In this document: piece by piece, positions 12,969 to 47,477 of the stretch
Layout: each line of letters begins with the position of its first letter
Numbering within the stretch: position 1 is the stretch's first letter
DNA from: a virus
Lineage: Duplodnaviria; Heunggongvirae; Uroviricota; Caudoviricetes
Strand: one strand, 5' to 3'
Length of the DNA: 64,000 nucleotides
Virus record (IMG/VR): IMGVR_UViG_3300031994_000001
Coordinates: 183,799 to 247,798 of that record
Made by a program: the position numbers and the translations under genes
The notes under the pieces: model-generated
The model's input: the letters and a program-made list of their open reading frames with translations, nothing else
Told to the model about the DNA's origin: nothing
The model's database searches: none

Positions 12969-13134
12969 AGGTGTGTAGCATAAACAATGCGCGGCGTGCG
13001 TCTATTTTTTTTTCGGTTCTTGTCTTAAAGAACACAGCAGCAAAACTCACTATCATCTGTATTTAATAAATTTCAATCAAAATCATTCCGCGAGACGCTT
13101 TGCCGATATGCGGGTCACAACCCCGCCACACCTT
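12969..13134 (+). ncRNA. tRNA-scaffolded ncRNA A (degenerate D and T loops, large anticodon-arm insert)
   Basis: Acceptor AGGTGTG/CACACCT; D stem GCAT/ATGC; stem CGGCG/TGCCG extended by GCGTCT/AGACGC; T stem GCGGG/CCCGC with 7-nt loop; insert has GTTCTT/AAGAAC hairpin and AAGAA-N5-CAGCA. Confidence 0.75.
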
Positions 13135-13185: not shown

Positions 13186-13219
13186 AAAAGGAAGCCCGTT
13201 TGGACTTCCTTTTTCTTTT
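13186..13219. terminator. Bidirectional intrinsic terminator
   Basis: AAAAGGAAG...CTTCCTTTT hairpin between ncRNA A (+) and the ligase gene (-). Confidence 0.7.
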
Positions 13220-16969: not shown

Positions 16970-17983
16970 ATGATTAGCATTATAACCCCCGCACACAAGG
17001 TGCTGCCGTGGTACAACGCTCGGCTCATAAACGTGTGCAGCCAAGACTCTGACGAGTGGGAGTGGATTATCCTTGACAACTCGAAGGACGGATGCGTTAA
17101 AGAATATGTTGACCGTTTCTTTACTGAAATGCAGGGTGTGAATTACTTGCATTGCAGGTCTAAAATCAAAGTCTATCACGAGCCGCAGTTTTCTGACATA
17201 CCGCTTGTTGACGGTAAAATGGGCAAGATGTGCAATCGAATGCTTGAACTCGCAACGTGCGATGATGACGGATTCTTTATGCGTCTTGACTTTGACGATT
17301 TTCTGTGTGACGGGAGTATCCGTATAATTAACAAGGCTATCCGTATGAATCCCGACAGCGAATTTATCACGGGTCAAATAGGCGATTGGCTTGTTATGAC
17401 AAAGAACGGGGATTTTGACTATTGCGATTTCAGCGATGCGTTCAACCACGACCCCGATGACTTGCTTGAAGTTATGCGGTGCGAGAAAATCTGCGACCCG
17501 TCATTGATTGACGAATACAAAGCAAGAATACAAAAATACGGGCTGACAAGAAAACTTGTTAGCGCACCCTGCCGTGTGACATTACCATATACCGAATTTA
17601 ATTTTTTTCGAAACGAAGTGCAGACTTTGGGCGCGGGTTGGGATATGTTCGGCGGAGTTGAGCATCCCCTTTGTTTGAAGAAAAGCGCGTTTCTGAAAAA
17701 GATAGGCGGATTCGTAACGAACAATTCAAAAGAGGATTTGGTGAGCCTACTCTATGTGACGAGATTCGAGAACATTGTCTATATAGACAACGCACTTTAC
17801 CTCCGCTGTGTAGTATGCAGCAAACGCGGAAGATTCTATTATATGGACAGCGGCACTATTGAGGTATGCAACCAAGCAAACAAGCAGATAGAGTGGGATA
17901 TAATCACTTCCGAACTTAAAGAGAATTACAGCAGGCTCGGATTGTTCGGGCTTGTAGTACCAAAACGCATTAAATTCAACTAA
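16970..17983 (+). CDS. GT-A fold (GT2-like) glycosyltransferase 1
   Basis: ISIITPAH start, WEWIILDNSKDG, RLDFDD (DxD). Confidence 0.75.
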   Translation: MISIITPAHKVLPWYNARLINVCSQDSDEWEWIILDNSKDGCVKEYVDRFFTEMQGVNYLHCRSKIKVYHEPQFSDIPLVDGKMGKMCNRMLELATCDDDGFFMRLDFDDFLCDGSIRIINKAIRMNPDSEFITGQIGDWLVMTKNGDFDYCDFSDAFNHDPDDLLEVMRCEKICDPSLIDEYKARIQKYGLTRKLVSAPCRVTLPYTEFNFFRNEVQTLGAGWDMFGGVEHPLCLKKSAFLKKIGGFVTNNSKEDLVSLLYVTRFENIVYIDNALYLRCVVCSKRGRFYYMDSGTIEVCNQANKQIEWDIITSELKENYSRLGLFGLVVPKRIKFN

Positions 17984-26308: not shown

Positions 26309-26606
26309 GGGGCATTGCAGAGAATCCCTGCAAATGTGGAGTGAAGTGCTTACCGAATCAAATACAAAAGGTTGGGGTATTCACTTGAATTTCACGAGTG
26401 ATGACGCTAAAAATGCCCTGCGCATAGCGACAAATATCTGCTCCAACATAGCAATCAAGAATGGAAAAATCCGCACAGTTGAAGATGCGGAAAAAATCGG
26501 CGATGCAATCAGAGAATTTGTTTGGGATAACTTTGGCATTGACACAACCAAAAGTAACGAGAATGGCGAACAAGAATCAGACGAAAGTTTACAAGTACAG
26601 CCTTAA
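26283..26606 (+). CDS. Hypothetical protein
   Basis: Co-oriented ORF. Confidence 0.65.
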   Translation: MEEQIMEIEGHCRESLQMWSEVLTESNTKGWGIHLNFTSDDAKNALRIATNICSNIAIKNGKIRTVEDAEKIGDAIREFVWDNFGIDTTKSNENGEQESDESLQVQP

Positions 26607-27027
26607 TGGAAAACTTCTTGCTGTCTATGACAGCATTTCCATTGCCGCCAAAGACAACAAGATTTCGACAACCTGCATCGCCAACGCAATGTACGGCGGT
26701 ACTAAATTCAATATCAGTCACAAGAATATTTGGCTTCGCGAATCTATGGTTGGGGAGATAGACAAAATCGTTGCCGACCGAAAAAAGGCTGTGACGTTGG
26801 AGGGAAGAATGCACGCGACCATCAAGAAAAGCGAACCCATTGACAACAAGGTTGAGCGCAGGGGCAACTACATATTCATAGAAAAGAACTTGCCCGCCGT
26901 TGAAAGGTGCATACGCTGCGCTATGTATAACAGCACTATGGAATGTCCGCCCTGCGACAAACGCGACAGAGAAGATGGCAAGGAGGGGTATTGGAGATAT
27001 TGCAAACCGATGAATGTTGAATATTGA
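26563..27027 (+). CDS. NUMOD1-like DNA-binding domain protein
   Basis: KVYKYSLNGKLLAVYDSISIAA...I..A motif; Cys-rich C-terminus; no nuclease motif seen. Confidence 0.6.
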   Translation: MANKNQTKVYKYSLNGKLLAVYDSISIAAKDNKISTTCIANAMYGGTKFNISHKNIWLRESMVGEIDKIVADRKKAVTLEGRMHATIKKSEPIDNKVERRGNYIFIEKNLPAVERCIRCAMYNSTMECPPCDKRDREDGKEGYWRYCKPMNVEY

Positions 27028-27323: not shown

Positions 27324-27348
27324 ATCACAGTTGCAAATGTTTTTCAAA

Positions 27349-27388
27349 AAGAAGTTTTCAGCATTTGTATAAGTAATCAAACTTCTTG
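27349..27388 (+). promoter_or_regulatory. 5'-leader RNA hairpin carrying AAGAA-N5-CAGCA
   Basis: AAGAAGTTT (27349-57) pairs with AAACTTCTT (27379-87); CAGCA at 27359-63; same determinants as the tRNA-like RNA inserts. Confidence 0.65.
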
Positions 27389-27411
27389 CAAACCAAAAAA
27401 ATCGTATCAGT

Positions 27412-28932
27412 ATGATTGAACAAATGAAAGAAACATTGAACTCGGACGGCTACAATGTCGCCTACTCCGAAAACGGCGCAAAAATGTACGCAACAACGGG
27501 CAAGAACCTGCTTGACTTGTTCTTCAAAATCCCGATGTTCCGTAAATTCAAGGCAGGCAAACTGCCAAACGGTTCTAACCTTCAGAACTTGTTTATGCCC
27601 GCCCTCACCGAGAACCGCGAACTCTTTGCGAAGTTTATGTTCTACCTGCGCGATGTCCGTGGCGGCGTTGGTGAACGTGATATGTTCCGCAATATGTTCT
27701 TGTGGTTCTCCGACAACTATCCGCAGGAGGCAACGAAACTCATCGGATTCATTCCCGAATTTGGTCGTTGGGACGACCTTGTGTTCATCGCTGTAAACAC
27801 CCGCAGCAACGAAGTCTGCGAGGCAGCGTTCAACATCATCAAAGCCCAACTCGAAGCCGACAAGACTTCCGACCATCCTTCCTTGCTCGCCAAGTGGATG
27901 CCCTCTATCAACGCGGGCAACAAGGCGAAGAGCGATGCGAAGTTCGTCATTTCCAAACTCGGTATCATCAGCGCAGATTACCGTAAGATGCTCGCCGAAC
28001 TCCGTAAGAAAATTGACATTGTGGAGACCCACATTGCGTCAAAGACCTACGGTGAAATTGACTACGAGAAAGTGCCTTCCGTGGCTAACACCCGTTACGC
28101 CAACTTGTTCTTGAAATACGATGAGGACAGACGCAGGGCATACCTCGGCGCACTTGTCAAGGGCGAAGCCAAAATCAACGCTTCCGCCGTGTTCCCGCAC
28201 GACATTTGGAAGAAACTGCACGAGAGCAACTGCGACAGAACCACTGTCAACGAAATGTGGAAGAATCTTCCCGACTTCGTTAAGGGAGACACGGGTACGC
28301 TCGTTGTCCGTGACGGTTCGGGTTCTATGACTGTCCGTCTGCCGAACTCAACAACCCAAGTGCTTGACATCGCTTCCGCTTTGAGCGTGTACTTTGCCGA
28401 GCGTATGACGGGCGAGTTCAAGGGCAAGTTCATCACCTTCAGTTCAAACCCGCAGTTGGTTGACATTTCGGGTGCAAAGAACCTCTACGAAGCATACAGC
28501 ATTCTGCGCTCCTACAACGATTGCAGCAACACTGACATCGAAAAGACGTTTGACCTTGTGCTTGACACCGCAGTCAGACATCAAATCCCGCAGAGCGAAC
28601 TGCCGAAGCAACTCCTCATTATCTCCGATATGGAGTTCGACTACGCGCACTCCGTGGGCTACTACTCTCAAAGAGTGGACGATGACACGCTGTTCACCAC
28701 AATCGCCAAGAAGTACGAGAAAGCGGGCTACCAACTTCCGAAACTCGTGTTTTGGAATGTCAACTCCCGCACTGGTGCCATCCCAATGACCCAAAATCCC
28801 AACGGCGTAATCTTGGTTGCGGGTTACTCACCTGCAATCTGCAAGATGGTTCTCTCCGAAGAGACCGACCCGTACTTGGCTCTTGTCAAGGTGCTGATGG
28901 GCGAGCGTTATTCTCAAATCACATTAGGATAG
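27412..28932 (+). CDS. DUF2828-family TROVE/Ro60-like protein with C-terminal VWA domain
   Basis: SENGA...LDLFF, LRDVRGG.GER, FGRWDDL, LLAKWMPS, IDYEKVPS, MIDAS DGSGSM, IISDMEFD, VFWNVNS, GYSP. Confidence 0.85.
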   Translation: MIEQMKETLNSDGYNVAYSENGAKMYATTGKNLLDLFFKIPMFRKFKAGKLPNGSNLQNLFMPALTENRELFAKFMFYLRDVRGGVGERDMFRNMFLWFSDNYPQEATKLIGFIPEFGRWDDLVFIAVNTRSNEVCEAAFNIIKAQLEADKTSDHPSLLAKWMPSINAGNKAKSDAKFVISKLGIISADYRKMLAELRKKIDIVETHIASKTYGEIDYEKVPSVANTRYANLFLKYDEDRRRAYLGALVKGEAKINASAVFPHDIWKKLHESNCDRTTVNEMWKNLPDFVKGDTGTLVVRDGSGSMTVRLPNSTTQVLDIASALSVYFAERMTGEFKGKFITFSSNPQLVDISGAKNLYEAYSILRSYNDCSNTDIEKTFDLVLDTAVRHQIPQSELPKQLLIISDMEFDYAHSVGYYSQRVDDDTLFTTIAKKYEKAGYQLPKLVFWNVNSRTGAIPMTQNPNGVILVAGYSPAICKMVLSEETDPYLALVKVLMGERYSQITLG

Positions 28933-29430: not shown

Positions 29431-30111
29431 ATGAAACATTACGATTCGATAAACAGAGTGCAGGACGATGGATTCCTGCTTGGCAAGAGCGTGTGGGCGT
29501 TCAACAAATTGGACGGTCAGAACTTCGCTGTCAAATACAATCCGAAGAAAAACATATACGATTCATTCGGCAGCAGGAACAGAATGGTTGACGAGAATGA
29601 CGAGCAGTTTGGCTGGGCTGTGCGGCATTTCAAGGAATCACTGATACCGAATGTACTGTCGGAACTTGTAAAGGCAAATAAGGGCAAAAACGGCGTGTTT
29701 GCAGGCGTTGACGAGATAACATTCTTCTTTGAATGGTACGGGGAACATTCATTCGCAGGCAGGCACGACCCGTCAGACATACTCCGTCTGTCTCTGATTG
29801 ACGTGTTCCTCAAAAAGAAAGGCTACATTGAGCCTAAACCGTACTATGACATATTCTGCAAAGACGATAGGATTGAAACACCCGAACTCGTATTCAAGGG
29901 CATTTTGACAAACTCATTCATACAAGAGATACGCGACAACGATTGGACGAAAGCGGATTGTTTATACCCTATGGTGAAAGAGGGTGTCGTGTGCCGCTCG
30001 TCATCTCTGCTGAAAGGTCAGCGTATGCCGAAAGTGAAGTTCAAGACCCAATGGTGGCTTGACCGCTTGCACGAACTCTACACAGAAGAAGAGTGCAAAC
30101 TCCTCGAATAA
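29431..30111 (+). CDS. Rnl2-like RNA ligase (adenylation domain only)
   Basis: NKLDGQN (motif I), FFEWYG (III), LIDV (IIIa), KEGVV (IV), KVKFKT (V). Confidence 0.7.
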   Translation: MKHYDSINRVQDDGFLLGKSVWAFNKLDGQNFAVKYNPKKNIYDSFGSRNRMVDENDEQFGWAVRHFKESLIPNVLSELVKANKGKNGVFAGVDEITFFFEWYGEHSFAGRHDPSDILRLSLIDVFLKKKGYIEPKPYYDIFCKDDRIETPELVFKGILTNSFIQEIRDNDWTKADCLYPMVKEGVVCRSSSLLKGQRMPKVKFKTQWWLDRLHELYTEEECKLLE

Positions 30112-38811: not shown

Positions 38812-39012
38812 ATGGATAAAGAAACAAAGTTGAATATAGTAAAGGCTTTGCACGCGGAAACGGGCTGCGGTCTTATGAAGATAACGCAATGCCTTGACTC
38901 ACTAATACACGCATTGAAGCACAAGCCTATGGTGAAAATGGATGTCGGCTACCGCTTGAATATGAAATGGGAAGAGTACGACCTCCGCACAGTAAGAAAA
39001 AACGCAGAATGA
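38812..39012 (+). CDS. Small protein resembling the EF-Ts N-terminal (UBA-like) / bL12 C-terminal helical motif
   Basis: KLNIVKALHAETGCGLMKITQCLD vs EF-Ts VKELR..TGAGMMDCKKAL; follows the promoter motif at 38794-38805. Confidence 0.5.
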   Translation: MDKETKLNIVKALHAETGCGLMKITQCLDSLIHALKHKPMVKMDVGYRLNMKWEEYDLRTVRKNAE

Positions 39013-39027
39013 CTAAAAGACAATGTT

Positions 39028-39417
39028 ATGGACGGAATGAAATATGACATTTATATGGACAGAGAGTGTGTCGCCTTGTGTGACGCTCTAAACGAACTGC
39101 CCGATGTAGAGACAACAGAAAGTTGCTGCGGGCATTTCGAGAACCCGTACCGAATTTGGTTCAGAACAAAGAACCCGTATTCGGTAGCCGTAATAGCGCG
39201 GGCAGTTGACAAACGGTATATCGGTATCGAAATGGGTTGGGAGTTGAATGTGGAGACATCCGATGCCGAATCAGACCCGCAATACTGTTTCTGCCTCCAC
39301 TCGGCGAGACCCTACGCCGATTACGGTGAGATGATGACTGACATCACAAAAATTATTGAGAATATAGAGTATTGGAAATCACCAACTTTTTACAACTATT
39401 TCAAATTTAACAATTAA
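39028..39417 (+). CDS. Hypothetical protein with TYW3-like T.ESC.GH motif
   Basis: LCDALNELPDVETTESCCGH resembles the L..IN......TTSSCSG N-terminus of TYW3-fold proteins; fold call tentative. Confidence 0.5.
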   Translation: MDGMKYDIYMDRECVALCDALNELPDVETTESCCGHFENPYRIWFRTKNPYSVAVIARAVDKRYIGIEMGWELNVETSDAESDPQYCFCLHSARPYADYGEMMTDITKIIENIEYWKSPTFYNYFKFNN

Positions 39418-39428
39418 AAATTATAGTT

Positions 39429-41015
39429 ATGAAGGAAATCTTTTCAAAGTCAGAAAATTTCAAGCAGGAATATTCTGCAACAATCGTAAGGGTCGGGGAA
39501 CTCAAGGACATTGAGAACTCCGACAACTTGAAGCAAACCATCATTGACGGATTCAGCGTTGTCGTCAACAAGAACGATGTCAAGGAGGGCGACTATATGA
39601 TTTACTGCAAGAACGAGACCGAATTGAACTCGGAGTACCTTGCCGTGAACAATATGTACGAAATCGGCGAGCGTCACCTTAACGCAAACTGTGTTGAGGT
39701 TGAGAAGTTGATTGCTGACGGCAAAACCGATGAGGCGAAGAAAATGGTCGGCTACTTCAACAAGAACGGTCGTGTCAAGATGATTCGTCTGCGCGGCTGT
39801 CCGTCTATGGGCGTTCTTATGCGTTTGGTGAGTTTCATCAATTGGGACGGCGCATTGGCTGATGTCAATCTCCAAGACTATGTTCACTACGACAGCAACG
39901 GCAACTTCGTTCCATTCGACTTCGACACCGTGAACGGCAAACTGTTCATCAAGGCATACGTGCCGAAAATCAACCCTTGCAGAAGCGGTGGCGGAAGCGG
40001 CGGCGGAAAGAAGAAGGACAAGTCAAAGAAGTTCGACCGAATGATTGAGGGCGAATGGGCGTTCCACTATGACACCAACCAACTCAACTCTAATATGTGG
40101 AGACTGTCTCCCGAAGACGTTGTGTATATCTCAACCAAGGTACACGGCACATCAATCTGTCTCGGCAACATTCTTGTCAAGAAGCCCACATTGCTTAACA
40201 AGTTCCGCGACTTCCTCAACTCATTCAAGGACAAGAAAATCAGCAAGTACGAGCGTCAGTTGAAGCGCACCGAGGACGATTTGCTGAAACTTGAACTCCA
40301 AAAGAAAATCGCAGTCGTTGACAACCGCAAGATTCGCAAGTTCGATACGGAATACTACAATGTGTATTCCTCACGCACGGTCATCAAGAACCAATACATC
40401 AACAAGCAGGTCAACAGCGGTTTCTACTCAACCGACATTTGGGGCGAGTACAACGAAATGCTGAAGGGCAAGATTCCGCAGAACGTGTCAATCTACGGCG
40501 AGATTGTCGGCTACCTCACGGGTTCGTCAAAGATGATTCAGAAGAACTACGACTACGGCTGTGAGGTCGGCGAGAACAAACTTATGATTTACCGTGTCAA
40601 CGAAAAGTTGGAGGACGGCACTCACAAGGAGTACGAGATTGATGAGGTTATTGAGTTCACCAAGCAGTTGGTCGCCCAATACCCCGAAATCGAAAGCAGG
40701 ATTCTGCCGTACACTCTGCTGTTCCACGGCAAACTCTCCGACTTGTATCCGCAAGTTGACAGAGCAAACCATTGGAACGAGAATATCCTTGAGGAACTGA
40801 AGAACGACAAGGAGCATTTCGGTATGGAACTTGACGAGCCTATGTGCAAGAACAAAGTTCCACGCGAGGGTATCTGTCTGCGTATCGCAAACGACCCCGT
40901 TAAGGAGTGCTTCAAGTTGAAGTGCCTCTACTTCCTCGGCAAAGAAGCAGCCAATATTGACAAGGGTGAAGTCGATATCGAAATGGCTGACAACTACGGC
41001 GAGCAACAACAATAG
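39429..41015 (+). CDS. RNA ligase, DRB0094/Rnl2-like with N-terminal tRNA-binding OB-like domain
   Basis: IENSDNL...VKEGDYMIY OB region; TKVHGTS (I), IYGEIVG (III), REGICLR (IV), FKLK (V). Confidence 0.85.
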   Translation: MKEIFSKSENFKQEYSATIVRVGELKDIENSDNLKQTIIDGFSVVVNKNDVKEGDYMIYCKNETELNSEYLAVNNMYEIGERHLNANCVEVEKLIADGKTDEAKKMVGYFNKNGRVKMIRLRGCPSMGVLMRLVSFINWDGALADVNLQDYVHYDSNGNFVPFDFDTVNGKLFIKAYVPKINPCRSGGGSGGGKKKDKSKKFDRMIEGEWAFHYDTNQLNSNMWRLSPEDVVYISTKVHGTSICLGNILVKKPTLLNKFRDFLNSFKDKKISKYERQLKRTEDDLLKLELQKKIAVVDNRKIRKFDTEYYNVYSSRTVIKNQYINKQVNSGFYSTDIWGEYNEMLKGKIPQNVSIYGEIVGYLTGSSKMIQKNYDYGCEVGENKLMIYRVNEKLEDGTHKEYEIDEVIEFTKQLVAQYPEIESRILPYTLLFHGKLSDLYPQVDRANHWNENILEELKNDKEHFGMELDEPMCKNKVPREGICLRIANDPVKECFKLKCLYFLGKEAANIDKGEVDIEMADNYGEQQQ

Positions 41016-41030
41016 TGCTTAACGCACAGC

Positions 41031-41148
41031 GGGCGTGTGGCTGAATTGGTAAAGGCAATTAAGTCACAAAACGGTTCTCGAAAGAGAATACAGCAGCAAC
41101 TTATACAAACTCACTTATCGTATGGCGGTTCGAGTCCGCCCGCGTCCG
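41031..41148 (+). ncRNA. tRNA-scaffolded ncRNA B with 48-nt insert in place of the anticodon loop
   Basis: Acceptor GGGCGTG/CGCGTCC; D arm GCTGAATTGGTAAAGGC; stem TAAGT/ACTTA; T arm GGCGG-TTCGAGT-CCGCC; insert TTCTC-GAAA-GAGAA then N5-CAGCA. Confidence 0.85.
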
Positions 41149-41152
41149 CAAA

Positions 41153-41269
41153 GGGAGTGTGGCTGAACGGTTAGGCGGCGGGATGGCAGATAATTCTTGA
41201 ACAAGAACTTTACAGCAACATTAACCAAGGTAAACCCGTGAGATGGTGGTTCGACTCCATCCGCTCCCA
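41153..41269 (+). ncRNA. tRNA-scaffolded ncRNA C with 52-nt insert in place of the anticodon loop
   Basis: Acceptor GGGAGTG/CGCTCCC; D arm GCTGAACGGTTAGGC; stem GCGGG/CCCGT; T arm GGTGG-TTCGACT-CCATC; insert TTCTTG-AA-CAAGAA then CTTTA-CAGCA. Confidence 0.85.
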
Positions 41270-41284
41270 CAAAAATTTAGAAAT

Positions 41285-42127
41285 ATGCTATTCAACGTAG
41301 ATTATCACATAACTGACATTTGCAACCTCAACTGTGCGCATTGCAGTCATTACTGTCCGTTGGTGAAGTTTATACCAAACACAAAGCACAAGTCGGTTGA
41401 GCAGATTACGGCAGACTTGACGCTGCTGTCAAAGCACAAGGACTATTTGGAGAGATTGGGCATATTGGGCGGCGAACCCTGCCTGCACCCGCAACTCTCG
41501 AAGATATTGCGAATCGCCCGTGGGCTGTTTCCGAAAACAAAAATCGTTCTGACGACAAACGGAACGCTGACCGAGAAATACCTGCGGTGGAAAGATGCCA
41601 TTGAGGAAAACGACATACAACTTTGTGTAACGCTGTACCCGTTCAAAGGGGATGAACAATCCGCTTGGCAGAATTTCAAGAGAATATCCGACTTCATACC
41701 GTCAGTTGATGTTTGGGCATATCCTGCGCAGGTAGGTATGACATATCACCAACTCGCATACGAACCTTGCATAAAGGATGATATGGATAGAGAGGAAAAG
41801 GATAAACTCGAAAGCAAGGTGTTCGGCTGTTACAAGCGTTGGCAATGTAACCAACTCAAAGACGGCAAACTTTGGATATGCCACTATGCCGCTTACTTGG
41901 ACATACTTGAAAAGGCGTTTCCAAACAAGGTGAATATCGGTCAAGACGCACAATGCTATTTGGACTTGAACAATGACAATCTGACCGAGCAGGACATATA
42001 CCAATGGCAATGCGAGACATATCCAAAAATATGCAAGCACTGTACCGATGTCCAACACGGCGGCTATGACGGCGAAACAGAGCCTTGGTGCAGGACAAAG
42101 TATGACATTTCCGAATGGGTTGAATAA
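41285..42127 (+). CDS. Radical SAM protein
   Basis: CNLNCAHC (CxxxCxxC), LGGEP, TTNGT, extra C-terminal Cys cluster; start at ATG 41285. Confidence 0.88.
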   Translation: MLFNVDYHITDICNLNCAHCSHYCPLVKFIPNTKHKSVEQITADLTLLSKHKDYLERLGILGGEPCLHPQLSKILRIARGLFPKTKIVLTTNGTLTEKYLRWKDAIEENDIQLCVTLYPFKGDEQSAWQNFKRISDFIPSVDVWAYPAQVGMTYHQLAYEPCIKDDMDREEKDKLESKVFGCYKRWQCNQLKDGKLWICHYAAYLDILEKAFPNKVNIGQDAQCYLDLNNDNLTEQDIYQWQCETYPKICKHCTDVQHGGYDGETEPWCRTKYDISEWVE

Positions 42128-42138
42128 GCAATAAACTT

Positions 42139-42879
42139 ATGCGAAACAGAGAAGAACTTAATAGATGTATAGCGCAATCCTTAAAGGATGGTCGTTTTTA
42201 TGAAAGATTTGTTGAAGCCCAAATCAAAATAAATTTTCCGCAGTCTTTCTGCAAGCACATTGAGGATTTTGACGACAATATGGTGTTTAGAGTTGACGGC
42301 AAACAATGCGCAAAGACGGAAGTTGATGAAAAATACCACATTGATTTGTTTTTGAAATTTGACAAAAACAAAGAACGGATGCAGAGTATGGATGCCAAAT
42401 CTCCAAAACGCTTGAAACGCCAAGACACATCATATAATTATAACATAGAGTACGTTGAATTTACCAATGTGAATGGAGAAGAAGGATGGGTTCGTGGCAG
42501 AGCGGATTTTATCGCGTTTGTTACAAATGTTGACATAATCATAGTTAGCAGACATTGGCTTTTCGGATATTCAAATGATATTGTGAAACCAAACACACCC
42601 ATTTATATCGGTAACATAGCAGACAAATATCCAAATGACTATCTACATAAATTGAGCAGAAGAAAAGACCGAAAGGATTTGATTACTATATTAAGCACGG
42701 AAGAAATACGCAAAATTGCCAAAGAGCAAAATGGATTGATTATGCGATTTGACAAAAGCATTGATTGGAATCAAATTGACCAAATGAGAAAAAACGGTGA
42801 AGATGTGACTGAATTGCTTGATGTTGACGCGACTGTTATTGATTACAGAAAGACTGAATCTGTCGCAGAAGCATCATAA
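42139..42879 (+). CDS. PD-(D/E)xK-like nuclease (possible homing endonuclease)
   Basis: HIDL...MDAK catalytic-like pattern, VEF...GWVRG.ADFIAF; AT-rich relative to neighbours. Confidence 0.55.
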   Translation: MRNREELNRCIAQSLKDGRFYERFVEAQIKINFPQSFCKHIEDFDDNMVFRVDGKQCAKTEVDEKYHIDLFLKFDKNKERMQSMDAKSPKRLKRQDTSYNYNIEYVEFTNVNGEEGWVRGRADFIAFVTNVDIIIVSRHWLFGYSNDIVKPNTPIYIGNIADKYPNDYLHKLSRRKDRKDLITILSTEEIRKIAKEQNGLIMRFDKSIDWNQIDQMRKNGEDVTELLDVDATVIDYRKTESVAEAS

Positions 42880-42885
42880 ACAGCA

Positions 42886-43014
42886 GGACGTGTAGCCAAA
42901 TCGGTAAAGGCAGAGGAGCGCAAAAGTTTCTTGTAAAGAAACAATCAGCAACCATAGCAAAGAAAACCTCGCATACACATAGGTGTATTGGTGGTTCGAG
43001 TCCACCCGCGTCCA
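42886..43014 (+). ncRNA. tRNA-scaffolded ncRNA D (class II variable arm) with 50-nt insert in place of the anticodon loop
   Basis: Acceptor GGACGTG/CGCGTCC; D arm GCCAAATCGGTAAAGGC; stem GAGG/CCTC; variable arm ATACAC/GTGTAT; T arm GGTGG-TTCGAGT-CCACC; insert GTTTCTT-GTA-AAGAAAC and AAGAA-N5-CAGCA. Confidence 0.85.
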
Positions 43015-43053
43015 CAATCTGACTTCATAACTATACGGCGTTCAAACGCCACA

Positions 43054-43081
43054 AAAAAAGCCGCCTTTCGGGGCGGCTTTC
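43054..43081. terminator. Bidirectional intrinsic terminator
   Basis: AAAGCCGCC-TTTCG-GGGCGGCTTT between convergent units. Confidence 0.85.
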
Positions 43082-43105
43082 CATTTCTTATATATAAGTT
43101 ATGTA

Positions 43106-43765
43106 TCACACAAAAACATACGCCGTTTTGCACTTGTCTGCAAAAATGTTCACAACATCCCGTATGTTACTACACAGAAATTCAACGTTATTGTCAATAA
43201 ACCAAGGTTTGTCAATAAAGATATGCTCCATCAAAAACGGAAGCCATATAGTCAGACTGCCGTTTTTACTGTCCCAACCTTTGCTCGTTTGGGATTCCTC
43301 TTTTATTCTCGAACCCACAAAATAAGGATTGTGCAAATCATTATTGTATATATCACGCATTTTGGCAGTCATTCTCGCTGCCTTGTTGTCACCATAGTCT
43401 TGTGCAAACAAGTCTCTGTCAAAAACAAAAAACAGCAACACAAACAGACATCCTTCACCCGTTCTTTCATTTTTTGGTATGAACGCAACTGTATTGACAC
43501 CCTCGTCATACTTGCCGTTTAACCAACGCTCGTTTATAGTTGCCCGTTTAGCCATTTCATCGCCGAATTCCGAATAGTAGAATCCGTTTGCGTAAATATG
43601 CAGGTGATTGTACTTTGTCTGCGGATAAAGCAGCAAGTGACCTGGCATACTGACATCCTGCAATATATTGTCTATGACCCTTGAAGTCTGTTCAACAAGC
43701 AGAATCTTGTTGTTCTGCATTTTAAGGTAATCCTTTGAAATCGGTGCTATTTGTATCTTGCCCAT
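43106..43765 (-). CDS. Hypothetical protein with KI.PI N-terminal motif
   Basis: MGKIQIAPISKDYLK; last gene of the minus-strand unit. Confidence 0.7.
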   Translation of the reverse strand: MGKIQIAPISKDYLKMQNNKILLVEQTSRVIDNILQDVSMPGHLLLYPQTKYNHLHIYANGFYYSEFGDEMAKRATINERWLNGKYDEGVNTVAFIPKNERTGEGCLFVLLFFVFDRDLFAQDYGDNKAARMTAKMRDIYNNDLHNPYFVGSRIKEESQTSKGWDSKNGSLTIWLPFLMEHIFIDKPWFIDNNVEFLCSNIRDVVNIFADKCKTAYVFV

Positions 43766-46010: not shown

Positions 46011-47477
46011 ATGACAACTGAAGAATTTATCACAAGAGCGAAACAAGTACACGGAGACAAGTACGACTATTCCTTGGTGAAGTATGTTAATGCTAATACA
46101 AAGATTAAGATTATTTGCAAAATACACGGTATCTTTGAACAAAGACCGCTTAACCATTTATATAATAGCCACGGCTGTCCAAAATGTGGTGGTAATAAGC
46201 GATTAACAAAAGACGAGTTTGAAATAAAGGCAAATGAAGTTCACGGTAACAAATATAATTATGAATATGTTGAATATATCAATGGTCAAACTAAAGTAAA
46301 AATTGAGTGTCCTACTCACGGTATATTTGAGCAAACACCAGGCAGTCATTTAGGAGGATGCGGGTGTCCAAAATGTCAGAAAGTAGAAGCCGCTAATAAG
46401 CAGCGATTAACAAAAGACGAGTTTGAAATAAAGGCAAATGAAGTTCACGGTAACAAATATAATTATGAATATGTTGAATATATCAATAGTCGAACTAAAG
46501 TAAAAATTGAGTGTCCTACTCACGGTATATTTGAACAAAAACCAAGTAGTCATTTAATGGGTCACGGCTGTCCGAAATGCGGTAATATAGTAAAAATGAC
46601 AGCAGACGAATTTTTAAAAAAAGGAATACAAATTCATAGTTCTGCTAATTATATATATGATTATGTTGATTATGTTGACTATCATACAAAAGTAAAAATT
46701 GAATGTCCTACGCACGGTATATTTGAAATAAGACCAAATAATTTTTTACGAGGACAAGGGTGTCATAAATGCGCATTGGAAAGAAATGCAAATAGACGCA
46801 AACTAACAAAAGAAGAATTTGAAACAAGGGCAAACGTAGTTCACGATAATAAATATGATTATTCAGAAACACAGTTAAACGGTGTTGATAAAAATGCTCG
46901 TATTCGTTGTCCATATCACGGATATTTTTGGCAACGTCCTTATAGTCATCTTTGCGGATGCGGGTGTCCAAAATGTAGTGGAACTGGAATTAGAAATTCA
47001 CATAAATTTAACCTCCTTGAAGAATTTGAGAGTGAGTATGCGTTCCGCACGTTCCTCGAAAACAATGACATTAACATTCTTCTTTTGATTATCACCAATA
47101 TAGAACCGAAATATAAGCCTCTGAAAAAGGACATAATGTTCGCGTTGAGACACGCTGACGAAATAAACCCCATACAATATTTGCGTGAAAAATACAGTTC
47201 GGAATCCAATGACAGTTTTGCTCAAAATACAAATAATACAGACATCACTTCAAGCGATTCAAATGATGATATTGTAAACGACATACTCTCACAAAAAATA
47301 AAGCCAAACATAAACGACAATTTATCAATAGGTGACATTATCAAGAATGACAGTGAAGAAATCCAAGTGATAAACAGATTGGACTGTGAACACCTTATTA
47401 CGCCAGAAATTCGTGAGTATATTATGAATAAGTTTATCAATGATATGCACCGTAACAAAATTTCAAGTAGCAAATAG
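46011..47477 (+). CDS. Five-repeat Zn-finger (DUF723-like, homing-endonuclease-associated) DNA-binding protein lacking an obvious nuclease domain
   Basis: Five H..KY.Y......KV.I.C..HG.F...P..H....GC.KC units; acidic Asn/Ser-rich C-terminus. Confidence 0.8.
   Translation: MTTEEFITRAKQVHGDKYDYSLVKYVNANTKIKIICKIHGIFEQRPLNHLYNSHGCPKCGGNKRLTKDEFEIKANEVHGNKYNYEYVEYINGQTKVKIECPTHGIFEQTPGSHLGGCGCPKCQKVEAANKQRLTKDEFEIKANEVHGNKYNYEYVEYINSRTKVKIECPTHGIFEQKPSSHLMGHGCPKCGNIVKMTADEFLKKGIQIHSSANYIYDYVDYVDYHTKVKIECPTHGIFEIRPNNFLRGQGCHKCALERNANRRKLTKEEFETRANVVHDNKYDYSETQLNGVDKNARIRCPYHGYFWQRPYSHLCGCGCPKCSGTGIRNSHKFNLLEEFESEYAFRTFLENNDINILLLIITNIEPKYKPLKKDIMFALRHADEINPIQYLREKYSSESNDSFAQNTNNTDITSSDSNDDIVNDILSQKIKPNINDNLSIGDIIKNDSEEIQVINRLDCEHLITPEIREYIMNKFINDMHRNKISSSK
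46198..46540 (+). repeat. Intragenic tandem duplication, 204-nt period
   Basis: 46198-46283 is identical to 46402-46487, and near-identity continues ~50 bp further. Confidence 0.85.

What the first reader, a model, noticed from the sequence alone, without database searches (positions are those of the whole stretch)
41031..43014. Family of tRNA-scaffolded ncRNAs with a conserved module replacing the anticodon loop
Seen in sequence: three genes (41031-41148, 41153-41269, 42886-43014) have full acceptor stems, canonical D arms and TTCGA T arms. Their 7-nt anticodon loop is replaced by 48-52 nt. The inserts differ in sequence but all contain a short TTCTY/RAGAA hairpin, with RAGAA followed exactly 5 nt later by CAGCA (GAGAA-TACAG-CAGCA; AAGAA-CTTTA-CAGCA; AAGAA-ACAAT-CAGCA). 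No canonical Y32-U33 anticodon loop with matching acceptor identity can be read, and none encodes CCA. Established: bacterial Ro60-associated YrlA RNAs mimic tRNA D/T arms and carry their protein-binding stem where the anticodon arm would be. Inference: these RNAs use the tRNA body as a stable, host-processed scaffold to display a protein-binding site. They would be a differently permuted analogue of Y RNAs, or decoys for anticodon nucleases, rather than decoding tRNAs.
Basis: partly seen in the sequence, partly recalled or inferred. Interest (0 to 1): 0.92.

Follow-up and report, generated by a model that had tools for sequence, protein, structure and literature searches.

The report
tRNA-shaped partner RNAs of phage Ro60-like protein
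Three tRNA-shaped genes in a 413-kb rumen phage carry a conserved hairpin-plus-CAGCAA insert that across many phages travels with a Ro60-like ring protein, so they are most likely Y-RNA-like partner RNAs, not decoding tRNAs or ordinary intron-bearing tRNAs.

Summary
Rfam's tRNA model hits exactly the three stated stretches, and each carries a 50-52 nt insert with a 5-bp hairpin, 4-5 nt and CAGCAA (4 matches in the window, 0 expected).

The family is much larger. There are seven copies in this genome, dozens in unrelated IMG/VR phages, and five in cultured Vibrio phage KVP40, three of them annotated as "tRNA-Pseudo".

The hairpin covaries. The module co-occurs with a DUF2828/vWA protein (odds ratio 40, p=6e-5) and often lies directly beside its gene. 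This protein is encoded in the window (27412-28932), and its predicted fold matches Ro60 over the full length.

Rumen RNA contigs show W1 with its insert intact. W1 and W2 appear as discrete units with head-to-tail junctions.

In 22 of 36 members, cutting out the insert restores a perfect anticodon arm (W2 gives Tyr-GUA). However, the discriminator base fits the anticodon in only 8 of 18, and W1 and W3 cannot be restored.

Best reading (0.55): Y-RNA-like, tRNA-mimicking partners of a phage Ro60-like protein. Main rival (0.25): a new short tRNA intron.

I found it in neither Rfam nor the papers searched. Earlier notes of this scan reported the same family on other DNA.

The parts
41031..41148 (+). 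W1: tRNA-shaped RNA gene, 50-nt insert; no restorable anticodon arm
   Evidence: Rfam tRNA 34.9 bits. Own model R1 93.8 bits. No clean cut-out solution even with one mismatch allowed. Covered with the insert intact by RNA contigs of 4 runs.
41153..41269 (+). W2: tRNA-shaped RNA gene, 52-nt loop; removing 41185-41229 would give loop AUGUAAA (Tyr-GUA) on stem GCGGG/CCCGU
   Evidence: Rfam tRNA 40.1 bits. ARAGORN -i calls Tyr(gta) i(33,45). Cut-out solutions. The ortholog G001b gives the same loop.
42886..43014 (+). W3: tRNA-shaped RNA gene, 50-nt insert plus a 6-bp variable-arm hairpin; no U33 option
   Evidence: Rfam tRNA 39.5 bits. R1 63.2 bits. No cut-out solution.
41075..41099 (+). Module of W1: hairpin TTCTC/GAGAA, 5 nt, CAGCAA
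   Evidence: hairpin covariation across 36 members
41194..41218 (+). Module of W2: hairpin TTCTT/AAGAA, 5 nt, CAGCAA
42928..42951 (+). Module of W3: hairpin TTTCTT/AAGAAA, 4 nt, CAGCAA
41010..41149 (+). RNA unit holding W1, seen with a head-to-tail junction 41149->41010
   Evidence: X18 contig record 24, depth 27.1, against 6-7 for the ligase mRNA. X17 record 18 ends at 41149.
41150..41272 (+). RNA unit holding W2, seen with a head-to-tail junction 41272->41150
   Evidence: X17 contig record 19, depth 2.9
12969..13134 (+). W0: fourth module-bearing tRNA-like gene of the window; about 100-nt insert, non-canonical D and T loops, followed by a terminator-like hairpin with a T run
   Evidence: not matched by R1 or Rfam tRNA
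27412..28932 (+). Ro60-like protein (DUF2828 + DUF7788/vWA), the proposed protein partner
   Evidence: Pfam (one search did not cover this ORF). AF2 model pLDDT 80. Full-length Foldseek matches to Ro60/TROVE structures, E 1e-11 to 1e-6.
39429..41015 (+). RNA ligase (N-terminal OB + RNA_ligase; weak match to the DRB0094 ligase model) immediately upstream of W1
29431..30111 (+). Second RNA_ligase-family gene, two genes downstream of the Ro60-like gene
43053..43085 (+). GC-rich hairpin with T run that closes the ligase-W1-W2-rSAM-ORF-W3 run
   Evidence: Sequence; weak terminator-type Rfam matches there.

Best explanation
W1, W2 and W3 belong to a widespread phage family of tRNA-shaped non-coding RNAs. 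A constant handle (a 5-8 bp helix followed by 3-6 nt and CAGCAA) is grafted into the anticodon arm of a tRNA body.

Proposed working:
- The handle is the docking site for the phage's Ro60-like ring protein (DUF2828 plus vWA domain, window 27412-28932).
- The RNAs are cut out of the ligase operon transcript, keep the insert, and at least some molecules have their ends joined.
- They then work like Y RNAs of the YrlA type. The handle holds the ring protein, and the tRNA body tethers or baits proteins that recognise tRNA. In many family members the body includes a faithful anticodon hairpin.
- The most plausible targets are host anticodon-directed nucleases or the phage's own tRNA-repair enzymes (three RNA_ligase-family genes in the genome; earlier scan notes also list a CCA-adding enzyme and Thg1 in this window, which I did not check).

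Shown: the family, the covarying handle, the Ro60 fold, co-occurrence and adjacency, insert-bearing RNA, and head-to-tail junctions.

Inferred: direct binding, the absence of decoding, and the identity of the tethered partner.
For: 1. The module is real and structured. There are 4 copies in the window against 0 expected. Across 36 members, all 5 hairpin pairs show double changes and 97% of cells are paired.

2. The partner has the Ro60 fold. The AF2 model matches Thermus phage phiLo Ro60, Xenopus Ro60 and D. radiodurans Rsr over the full length.

3. Co-occurrence, in records at least 60% complete:
- module+/DUF2828+ 10
- module+/DUF2828- 1
- module-/DUF2828+ 6
- module-/DUF2828- 24
Fisher p=6.5e-5.

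4. Adjacency on the same strand. Members lie 157-289 nt upstream of the DUF2828 gene in four unrelated records, about 200 nt downstream in a fifth, and 1-5 kb away in four more.

5. The insert is retained in RNA. W1 is covered intact in 4 RNA runs at depths 8-27, above the neighbouring mRNA. The units 41010-41149 and 41150-41272 tile and carry head-to-tail junctions.

6. The RNAs are not selected for charging.
- The discriminator base is the usual one for the anticodon in 8 of 18 members, against 86% of 626 ordinary tRNAs from the same loci (p=4e-5).
- 14 of 36 members, including W1 and W3, have no restorable anticodon arm.
- W0 lacks canonical D and T loops yet keeps the module.

7. The handle occurs in other topologies: a T arm upstream of the module, and copies in the leader of the DUF2828 gene.

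8. No splicing toolkit tracks the module.
- EndA and RtcB are absent from this genome.
- KptA, the 246-aa ORF and the radical SAM gene do not follow the module.
- One 99%-complete module-bearing phage has no RNA_ligase or RtcB hit.
Against: - No binding experiment exists, and the tools here cannot model protein-RNA complexes.
- In this window the Ro60-like gene is 12-14 kb from the RNAs, not adjacent.
- The known Ro60-binding motif of Y RNAs (GNCGAAN0-1G in PMC4201824; CGAA in PMC12135203) is absent, and Rfam gives no Y RNA or YrlA hit.
- In 22 of 36 members a single excision restores a flawless cloverleaf, against 0.56 in shuffles. A pure handle model does not require that.
- Mature 75-nt spliced tRNAs would be nearly invisible in these RNA contigs, so retention of the insert does not exclude splicing.
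- The head-to-tail junctions come from contigs of two runs of one study. They could arise in library preparation.
- The control group for co-occurrence consists of chance hits of a pattern search, not a random sample of phages.
- Five cultured DUF2828 phages gave no match to my model. That model is tied to one architecture.
Confidence: 0.55

Rival explanations
1. The insert is a new class of short (38-55 nt) tRNA intron. It is usually placed in the 5' strand of the anticodon stem (exon ...CG | UAA...hairpin...CAGCAA...U | G... exon). It would be excised to give decoding tRNAs, with the nick sealed by a phage or host RNA ligase. The Ro60-like protein could be the chaperone or platform for this step.
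For: - 22 of 36 members regain a 5-bp Watson-Crick anticodon stem, U33, R37 and a 4-5 nt variable loop after one excision, against 0.56 +/- 0.8 in shuffles.
- Genome copies give Gly-UCC (U73, G1-C2-G3), Asp-GUC (G73, loop CUGUCAC) and Pro-UGG (G37, A73).
- W2 and its ortholog both give AUGUAAA.
- RNA ligase genes flank the RNAs and the Ro60-like gene.
- The genome encodes a KptA/Tpt1 2'-phosphotransferase.
Against: - W1, W3, W0 and 14 of 36 members cannot be restored.
- The discriminator base disagrees with the anticodon in 10 of 18 members.
- Every restorable copy in this genome duplicates an intron-less isoacceptor.
- No spliced joint appears in the RNA contigs, while the insert-bearing form is deeper than the flanking mRNA.
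- EndA and RtcB are absent here, and KptA does not track the module.
- No group I or other ribozyme match in Rfam.
- The module also occurs away from any tRNA body and in permuted order.
Confidence: 0.25
2. The RNAs are decoys for host anticodon nucleases or other tRNA-targeting defences and act on their own. The link with the Ro60-like gene would then only reflect a shared tRNA-repair gene neighbourhood.
For: - Anticodon hairpins are faithful but sit on bodies with mismatched acceptor identity.
- The window is rich in RNA-repair genes.
- Phage tRNAs are known to face anticodon nucleases (PMC7824862, read).
Against: - The invariant CAGCAA and covarying hairpin have no role in such a model.
- W1-W3 and W0 present no anticodon loop at all.
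- Adjacency to DUF2828 within 150-300 nt in five unrelated records is tighter than a general neighbourhood effect.
Confidence: 0.1
3. They are decaying pseudo-tRNAs hit by a small selfish insertion and have no function. This is the implicit reading of the 'tRNA-Pseudo' annotations in cultured phages.
For: - KVP40 copies are annotated tRNA-Pseudo-3/4/5, and phi-pp2/KVP40 papers list them as low-score pseudo-forms (PMC3468402).
- W1's stem is imperfect.
Against: - The hairpin shows compensatory changes across dozens of unrelated phages.
- Acceptor and T stems are 98-99% paired.
- The RNAs are present in RNA libraries at higher depth than the neighbouring mRNA.
- The link to one protein family is non-random.
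Confidence: 0.07

Closest known systems
YrlA-type bacterial and phage Y RNAs bound by Ro60/Rsr (Chen et al. 2014, PMC4201824; Rfam YrlA)
   Same: - A non-coding RNA that combines a tRNA-like D/T/acceptor domain with a separate protein-binding element.
- Encoded on the same strand as, and often within a few hundred bases to 4 kb of, a Ro60-fold protein gene.
- RNA ligase genes are often nearby.
   Different: - The handle is a helix plus CAGCAA, not the GNCGAAN0-1G bulged stem.
- The RNA ends lie at the acceptor stem and the handle closes the anticodon arm, which is the opposite topology.
- Many members are complete tRNAs with true anticodon hairpins.
- The protein is the divergent DUF2828 branch.
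- No Rfam YrlA or Y_RNA match.
Thermus phage phiLo Ro60 with Yrl1/Yrl2 (PMC12135203; PDB 9KOP, 9L5Y)
   Same: - A phage-encoded Ro60-fold protein with small RNAs encoded upstream of its gene.
- It is the best structural match to the window's protein.
   Different: - The phiLo RNAs are stem-bulge-stem Y RNAs with a CGAA motif and no tRNA body.
- Sequence identity of the proteins is about 16%.
Archaeal/eukaryal protein-spliced tRNA introns (bulge-helix-bulge, EndA, RtcB or Trl1/Tpt1)
   Same: - Short inserts (tens of nt) at varying places in the anticodon arm.
- Their removal restores a cloverleaf.
- This genome encodes ATP-dependent RNA ligases and Tpt1/KptA.
   Different: - A conserved internal sequence and structure module in place of a boundary motif.
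- No EndA and no RtcB in the genome.
- Identity elements are often inconsistent.
- Many members are not restorable.
'tRNA-Pseudo' genes of Vibrio phage KVP40 and relatives
   Same: They are the same family. KVP40 has five matches to my model at 46-72 bits, three of them annotated tRNA-Pseudo-3/4/5. The DUF2828 gene KVP40.0300 lies about 10 kb away.
   Different: This is only an annotation label. tRNAscan-SE's low-score GCA calls (PMC3468402) may be read out of the CAGCAA motif (my inference). No function or family has been proposed.

Membership tests
tRNA (Rfam RF00005) | Cloverleaf with acceptor, D and T arms scoring above the gathering threshold | tested here: met
   34.9, 40.1 and 39.5 bits against a threshold of 29
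tRNA (Rfam RF00005) | 5-bp anticodon stem closing a 7-nt loop with U33 and a purine at 37 | tested here: not met
   As encoded, the loop is 50-52 nt. After one excision W2 meets the feature, but W1 and W3 do not.
tRNA (Rfam RF00005) | Acceptor identity (discriminator base) consistent with the anticodon | tested here: not met
   Family level: 8 of 18 members, against 86% of 626 ordinary phage tRNAs. W2 (A73 with GUA) is consistent.
YrlA / Y RNA | Encoded near, and on the same strand as, a Ro60-fold protein gene | tested here: met
   Family level: directly adjacent in five unrelated records and within 5 kb in four more. In this window: same strand, 12-14 kb away.
YrlA / Y RNA | tRNA-like D and T arm domain | tested here: met
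YrlA / Y RNA | Ro-binding motif GNCGAAN0-1G / CGAA in a stem formed by the RNA's 5' and 3' ends | tested here: not met
   The motif is not conserved in the inserts (sequence). The ends lie at the acceptor stem. The motif definitions come from PMC4201824 and PMC12135203.
YrlA / Y RNA | Match to the curated Rfam model | tested here: not met
   No Y_RNA or YrlA match at E<=1 in 40900-43200, nor at gathering score in the whole window.
YrlA / Y RNA | Physical binding to the Ro60 protein | not testable with these tools
   Needs EMSA, RIP or CLIP.
Ro60/TROVE proteins (for the partner, window 27412-28932) | HEAT-repeat ring followed by a vWA domain | tested here: met
   Pfam DUF2828 + DUF7788/VWA. The AF2 model matches 9kop, 9l5y, 2i91, 1yvr and 2nvo over about 500 columns. 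No sequence-level PDB hit.
Group I tRNA introns | Catalytic core of about 200 nt or more (P3-P9), 5' splice site after U, terminal G | tested here: not met
   Inserts are 38-55 nt. No Intron_gpI match. The inserts mostly end in U and follow a G.
Protein-spliced (bulge-helix-bulge) tRNA introns | EndA splicing endonuclease available | tested here: not met
   PF01974 is absent from the 413-kb genome; the control rings in 4 archaea. The host was not examined.
Protein-spliced (bulge-helix-bulge) tRNA introns | Bulge-helix-bulge motif at the exon-intron boundaries | not tested
   Inspected by eye in only a few members. No systematic test was made.

The most novel reading that the evidence does not exclude
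The handle is both a Ro60-like docking site and a removable intron. The phage would store complete tRNAs as ring-bound, possibly circular, nuclease-proof precursors. On demand it would release decoding tRNAs by excision and nick-sealing with its own RNA ligases. That would be a protein-guided tRNA splicing pathway in viruses of bacteria.
Probability: 0.15. Interest if true: 0.95.

Novelty: new variant of a known kind. Interest (0 to 1): 0.74.

Why it matters
Ro60 and its Y RNAs are conserved from bacteria to humans, yet what the tRNA-like part of bacterial Y RNAs is for remains open.

This is a large family that I did not find described. Complete or partial tRNAs are fused to one constant handle and travel with a divergent Ro60-like protein. 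It occurs in hundreds-of-kilobase rumen phages and also in cultured phages: KVP40 has five copies, and a Felix O1-like E. coli phage has module copies of another architecture.

It explains a class of 'pseudo-tRNA' annotations. It gives tractable systems for asking what a Ro60-type RNP does during infection. It also links tRNA mimicry to the phage-host conflict over tRNA cleavage and repair. If the RNAs are circular or spliced, the RNA biology would be new as well.

Tried and rejected
- Default ARAGORN found no tRNA in the window. It needs the intron option.
- blastn of the locus against cultured phages gave no match.
- Five literature searches found no description of the module, only 'pseudo' tRNA remarks.
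- My first reading (a new intron, 55%) was lowered after I tested the Ro60 link.
- ARAGORN on all deletion variants was too permissive to be informative. I replaced it with a strict stem/loop test.
- Candidate processing partners were rejected as family-wide companions:
  - the 246-aa ORF 42139-42879 is absent even from the closest relative;
  - the radical SAM gene 41285-42127 does not follow the module;
  - KptA does not follow the module;
  - EndA and RtcB are absent from this genome.
- My model R1 found nothing in five cultured DUF2828 phages. It is tied to one architecture. A hairpin+CAGCAA scan did find copies beside the gene in the Felix O1-like phage.
- RNA contigs gave no cover, or only partial cover, over 41300-42000 and the 3' half of W3, and showed no spliced joint. 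Neither can be read as absence.
- The two 'skip' joints inside the ligase gene in X15 have short sides (22-25 nt) and probably come from another organism.
- The intron-less tRNAs of the genome are not recent parents of the module-bearing ones (55-68% identity).
- Complex prediction was not used because it cannot take RNA.
Full report
**The observation**

The window is part of a 413,021-bp IMG/VR virus record. The scores are 35-40 bits, and each match has a 48-59 nt insertion where the anticodon loop should be. Default ARAGORN sees nothing.

The sequence shows full acceptor stems, D arms and GGTTCGA T loops. The inserts are 50-52 nt. Each contains a 5-7 bp hairpin (TTCTY/RAGAA), 4-5 nt and CAGCAA. 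That pattern occurs four times in the window and never in 100 shuffles. No CCA is encoded; each gene is followed by CAA.

**The family is much larger than three genes**

- The fourth window copy (12969-13134, here W0) has a longer insert, non-canonical D and T loops, and a terminator-like hairpin after it.
- Three more copies sit in the phage's main tRNA cluster, 170-210 kb away.
- A relative whose ligase is 89% identical has the same trio beside its ligase gene.
- A pattern scan of IMG/VR, followed by a covariance model built from nine copies (R1), found dozens more in unrelated phage contigs.
- Cultured Vibrio phage KVP40 has five matches at 46-72 bits. Three are annotated 'tRNA-Pseudo-3/4/5' and two are unannotated.
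- Across 36 aligned members, all five hairpin pairs show changes on both sides and 97% of cells are paired. Controls slid by one to three columns give 45-54%. That alignment is fitted to the model, but the different hairpin sequences are also plain by eye (UUCUU/AAGAA, CCUC/GAGG, GUGUCU/AGACAC, CGUGAAAU/AUUUCACG and others).

**The intron reading**

In most family members the module does not replace the anticodon loop. It sits inside the 5' strand of the anticodon stem, after nt 28 or 29 (exon ...CG | UAA...hairpin...CAGCAA...U | G...), next to an intact anticodon hairpin.

Removing one contiguous 38-55 nt segment restores a perfect arm in 22 of 36 members: five Watson-Crick or G-U pairs, U33, a purine at 37, and a 4-5 nt variable loop. 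Shuffles give 0.56 +/- 0.8. The genome copies become Gly-UCC, Asp-GUC and Pro-UGG.

W2 and its ortholog both become AU|GUAAA (Tyr). The ortholog of W1 becomes a clean Phe-GAA. At this stage I favoured a new class of short intron.

**Evidence against decoding tRNAs**

- W1, W3, W0 and 14 of 36 members have no restorable arm, even with a mismatch allowed.
- Among 18 members with a unique anticodon, the discriminator base is the usual one for that amino acid in only 8. The figure is 86% for 626 ordinary tRNAs taken from the same loci (binomial p=4e-5).
- Every restorable copy in this genome duplicates an intron-less isoacceptor, and none is a recent copy of one.
- The module also occurs in other arrangements. 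One has a T arm upstream of the hairpin. Others lie in the leader of the Ro60-like gene. In a Felix O1-like E. coli phage the helix encloses CAGCAA.
- No splicing toolkit follows the module:
  - EndA and RtcB are absent from this genome.
  - KptA is present but occurs equally in relatives without the module and is missing from most genomes with it.
  - The neighbouring 246-aa ORF and the radical SAM gene are not family-wide.
  - One 99%-complete module-bearing phage has no RNA_ligase or RtcB hit.
- Rfam finds no group I intron or other ribozyme.

**The Ro60-like link**

Earlier notes of this scan pointed to a Ro60-like protein, and I tested this myself.

- The window encodes a DUF2828 + DUF7788/vWA protein at 27412-28932.
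- An AlphaFold model built on 20 homologues (pLDDT 80) matches Ro60/TROVE structures over its whole length. The hits are Thermus phage phiLo Ro60, Xenopus Ro60 and D. radiodurans Rsr, at E 1e-11 to 1e-6. There is no detectable sequence match to PDB chains.
- Among records at least 60% complete, module and DUF2828 co-occur as 10/1/6/24 (odds ratio 40, p=6.5e-5).
- In four unrelated records the module-bearing tRNA genes lie 157-289 nt upstream of the DUF2828 gene on the same strand. In a fifth they lie about 200 nt downstream, and in four more within 1-5 kb. This is the pattern by which YrlA RNAs were originally found next to rsr (PMC4201824).
- In this window the genes share a strand but are 12-14 kb apart.
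- Caveat: the control group consists of chance hits of my pattern search, not a random sample of phages.

**RNA evidence**

Logan contigs of four rumen metatranscriptome runs were laid on 39000-43300.

- W1 is covered with its insert intact in all four runs. Depths are 8.5-27, against 4-8 for the ligase mRNA.
- One contig reads 41010-41149 and then 41010-41039 again. Another reads 41150-41272 and then 41150-41178. A third stops at 41149.
- The two units therefore tile exactly, and each carries a head-to-tail junction. This suggests defined cleavage followed by end joining (circular RNA), or rolling-circle cDNA.
- For W2 the joined ends would close the acceptor stem with a 7-nt loop.
- Limits: these are contigs from two runs of one study, ligation during library preparation cannot be excluded, and mature 75-nt tRNAs would hardly be captured. 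The data show that the long form exists and is relatively abundant. They do not show that splicing never happens.
- The ends do not coincide with RNase P or RNase Z sites.

**Conclusion**

The best-supported reading (0.55) is that W1-W3 are Y-RNA-like partner RNAs of the phage's Ro60-like protein. The hairpin-plus-CAGCAA handle docks the protein. The tRNA body, which in many relatives carries a faithful anticodon hairpin, serves as tether or bait for tRNA-recognising proteins. The setting is a genome region rich in RNA-repair genes: RNA ligases at 29431 and 39429 and, according to earlier unchecked notes, a CCA-adding enzyme and Thg1.

Direct binding, the tethered partner and the absence of decoding are inferred. 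The main rival (0.25) is a new short intron. A hybrid of the two, a Ro60-bound and removable insert, is the most novel reading still open.

**Relation to known families**

The RNAs work like YrlA but fail two of its defining features: the GNCGAAN0-1G motif and the Rfam model. They also have the opposite topology. I therefore file them as a new variant of the Ro60/Y-RNA kind, not as members of YrlA.

I found no description in Rfam or in the papers searched. Cultured-phage papers list such genes only as low-score pseudo-tRNAs (PMC3468402). Several earlier notes of this scan reported the same family on other DNA, most with the Ro60-handle reading and one with the intron reading.

Noticed in passing
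window 12969-13134: A fourth module-bearing tRNA-like gene (W0). It has a 7-bp acceptor stem, an extended stem, an insert of about 100 nt with the same GGTTCTTG...AAGAAC-ACAG-CAGCAA module, and D and T loops lacking GG and TTCGA. A terminator-like hairpin with a T run follows at about 13190-13215. Neither Rfam tRNA nor my model detects it.
   Followed up: partly
window 27340-27395: The leader of the Ro60-like gene holds AAGAAGTTT-T-CAGCAT...AAACTTCTT, a helix that encloses a CAGCA element about 50 nt before the ATG. A clearer hairpin+CAGCAA lies about 60 nt before the start of the homologous gene in another phage (L214:2568). This may be autoregulation by the protein.
   Followed up: partly
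G000:C1:14979-15097, 17346-17465, 17481-17599 (outside the window): Three module-bearing tRNA genes in the main tRNA cluster. After excision they become Pro-UGG, Gly-UCC and Asp-GUC. What first looked like a long variable arm in them is really the anticodon hairpin.
   Followed up: yes
L223 (Vibrio phage KVP40, NC_005083.2 179304-181841): Five family members in a cultured phage. Three are annotated tRNA-Pseudo-3/4/5 and two are unannotated, one of them overlapped by the hypothetical CDS KVP40.0319. The motif varies there (CAGCAC, CTGCAA, CGGCAA).
   Followed up: partly
L224:4744-5075 (Escherichia phage vB_EcoM_AYO145A, Felixounavirus): The unannotated gap just downstream of the DUF2828 gene and tRNA-Glu holds two repeats of AGAAGACC-N5-CAGCAA...GGTCTGG and an unannotated tRNA-like body. 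Here the helix encloses the CAGCAA, a different architecture of the handle.
   Followed up: partly
L225 (Listeria phage LP-125): The DUF2828 gene lies between tRNA genes and an RtcB-like 'tRNA-splicing ligase' 1.3 kb downstream. This recalls the rsr-rtcB operon of Salmonella.
   Followed up: no
G000:C1:92993-93463 (outside the window): A KptA/Tpt1 RNA 2'-phosphotransferase gene (Pfam E 1e-42). It does not co-vary with the module across phages.
   Followed up: yes
window 41066, 41068, 41101: In two bovine RNA runs the W1 insert reads C, C and C in place of A, A and T. This changes the stretch UCACAAAA to UCCCCAAA while the tRNA body stays the same. The variable parts of the insert evolve fast; the W1 ortholog in the closest relative is entirely different there.
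   Followed up: partly
window 41107: One sheep RNA contig ends at 41107, inside the W1 insert 8 nt after CAGCAA, and runs straight into Illumina adaptor sequence. This marks an RNA or fragment end at that place.
   Followed up: no
window 41285-42127 and 42139-42879: Two genes lie between W2 and W3. One is a radical SAM protein with C-terminal cysteine clusters, which has a 37%-identical paralogue at G000:286063-286836. The other is a 246-aa ORF with no family match, absent from the closest relative.
   Followed up: partly
window 46011-47477: A large HNH/DUF723-type endonuclease gene lies close to the RNA operon. A NUMOD1-domain ORF is at 26461-27027, just upstream of the Ro60-like gene.
   Followed up: no
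G010:135664-135815, G007:99452-99632, G016:77682-77788, G008:84626-84746: Other long tRNA genes in related huge phages carry different inserts of 42-110 nt without the CAGCAA module. One has GCGCAGAAAT and one has TAGCAGAAT. Their nature is unknown.
   Followed up: no
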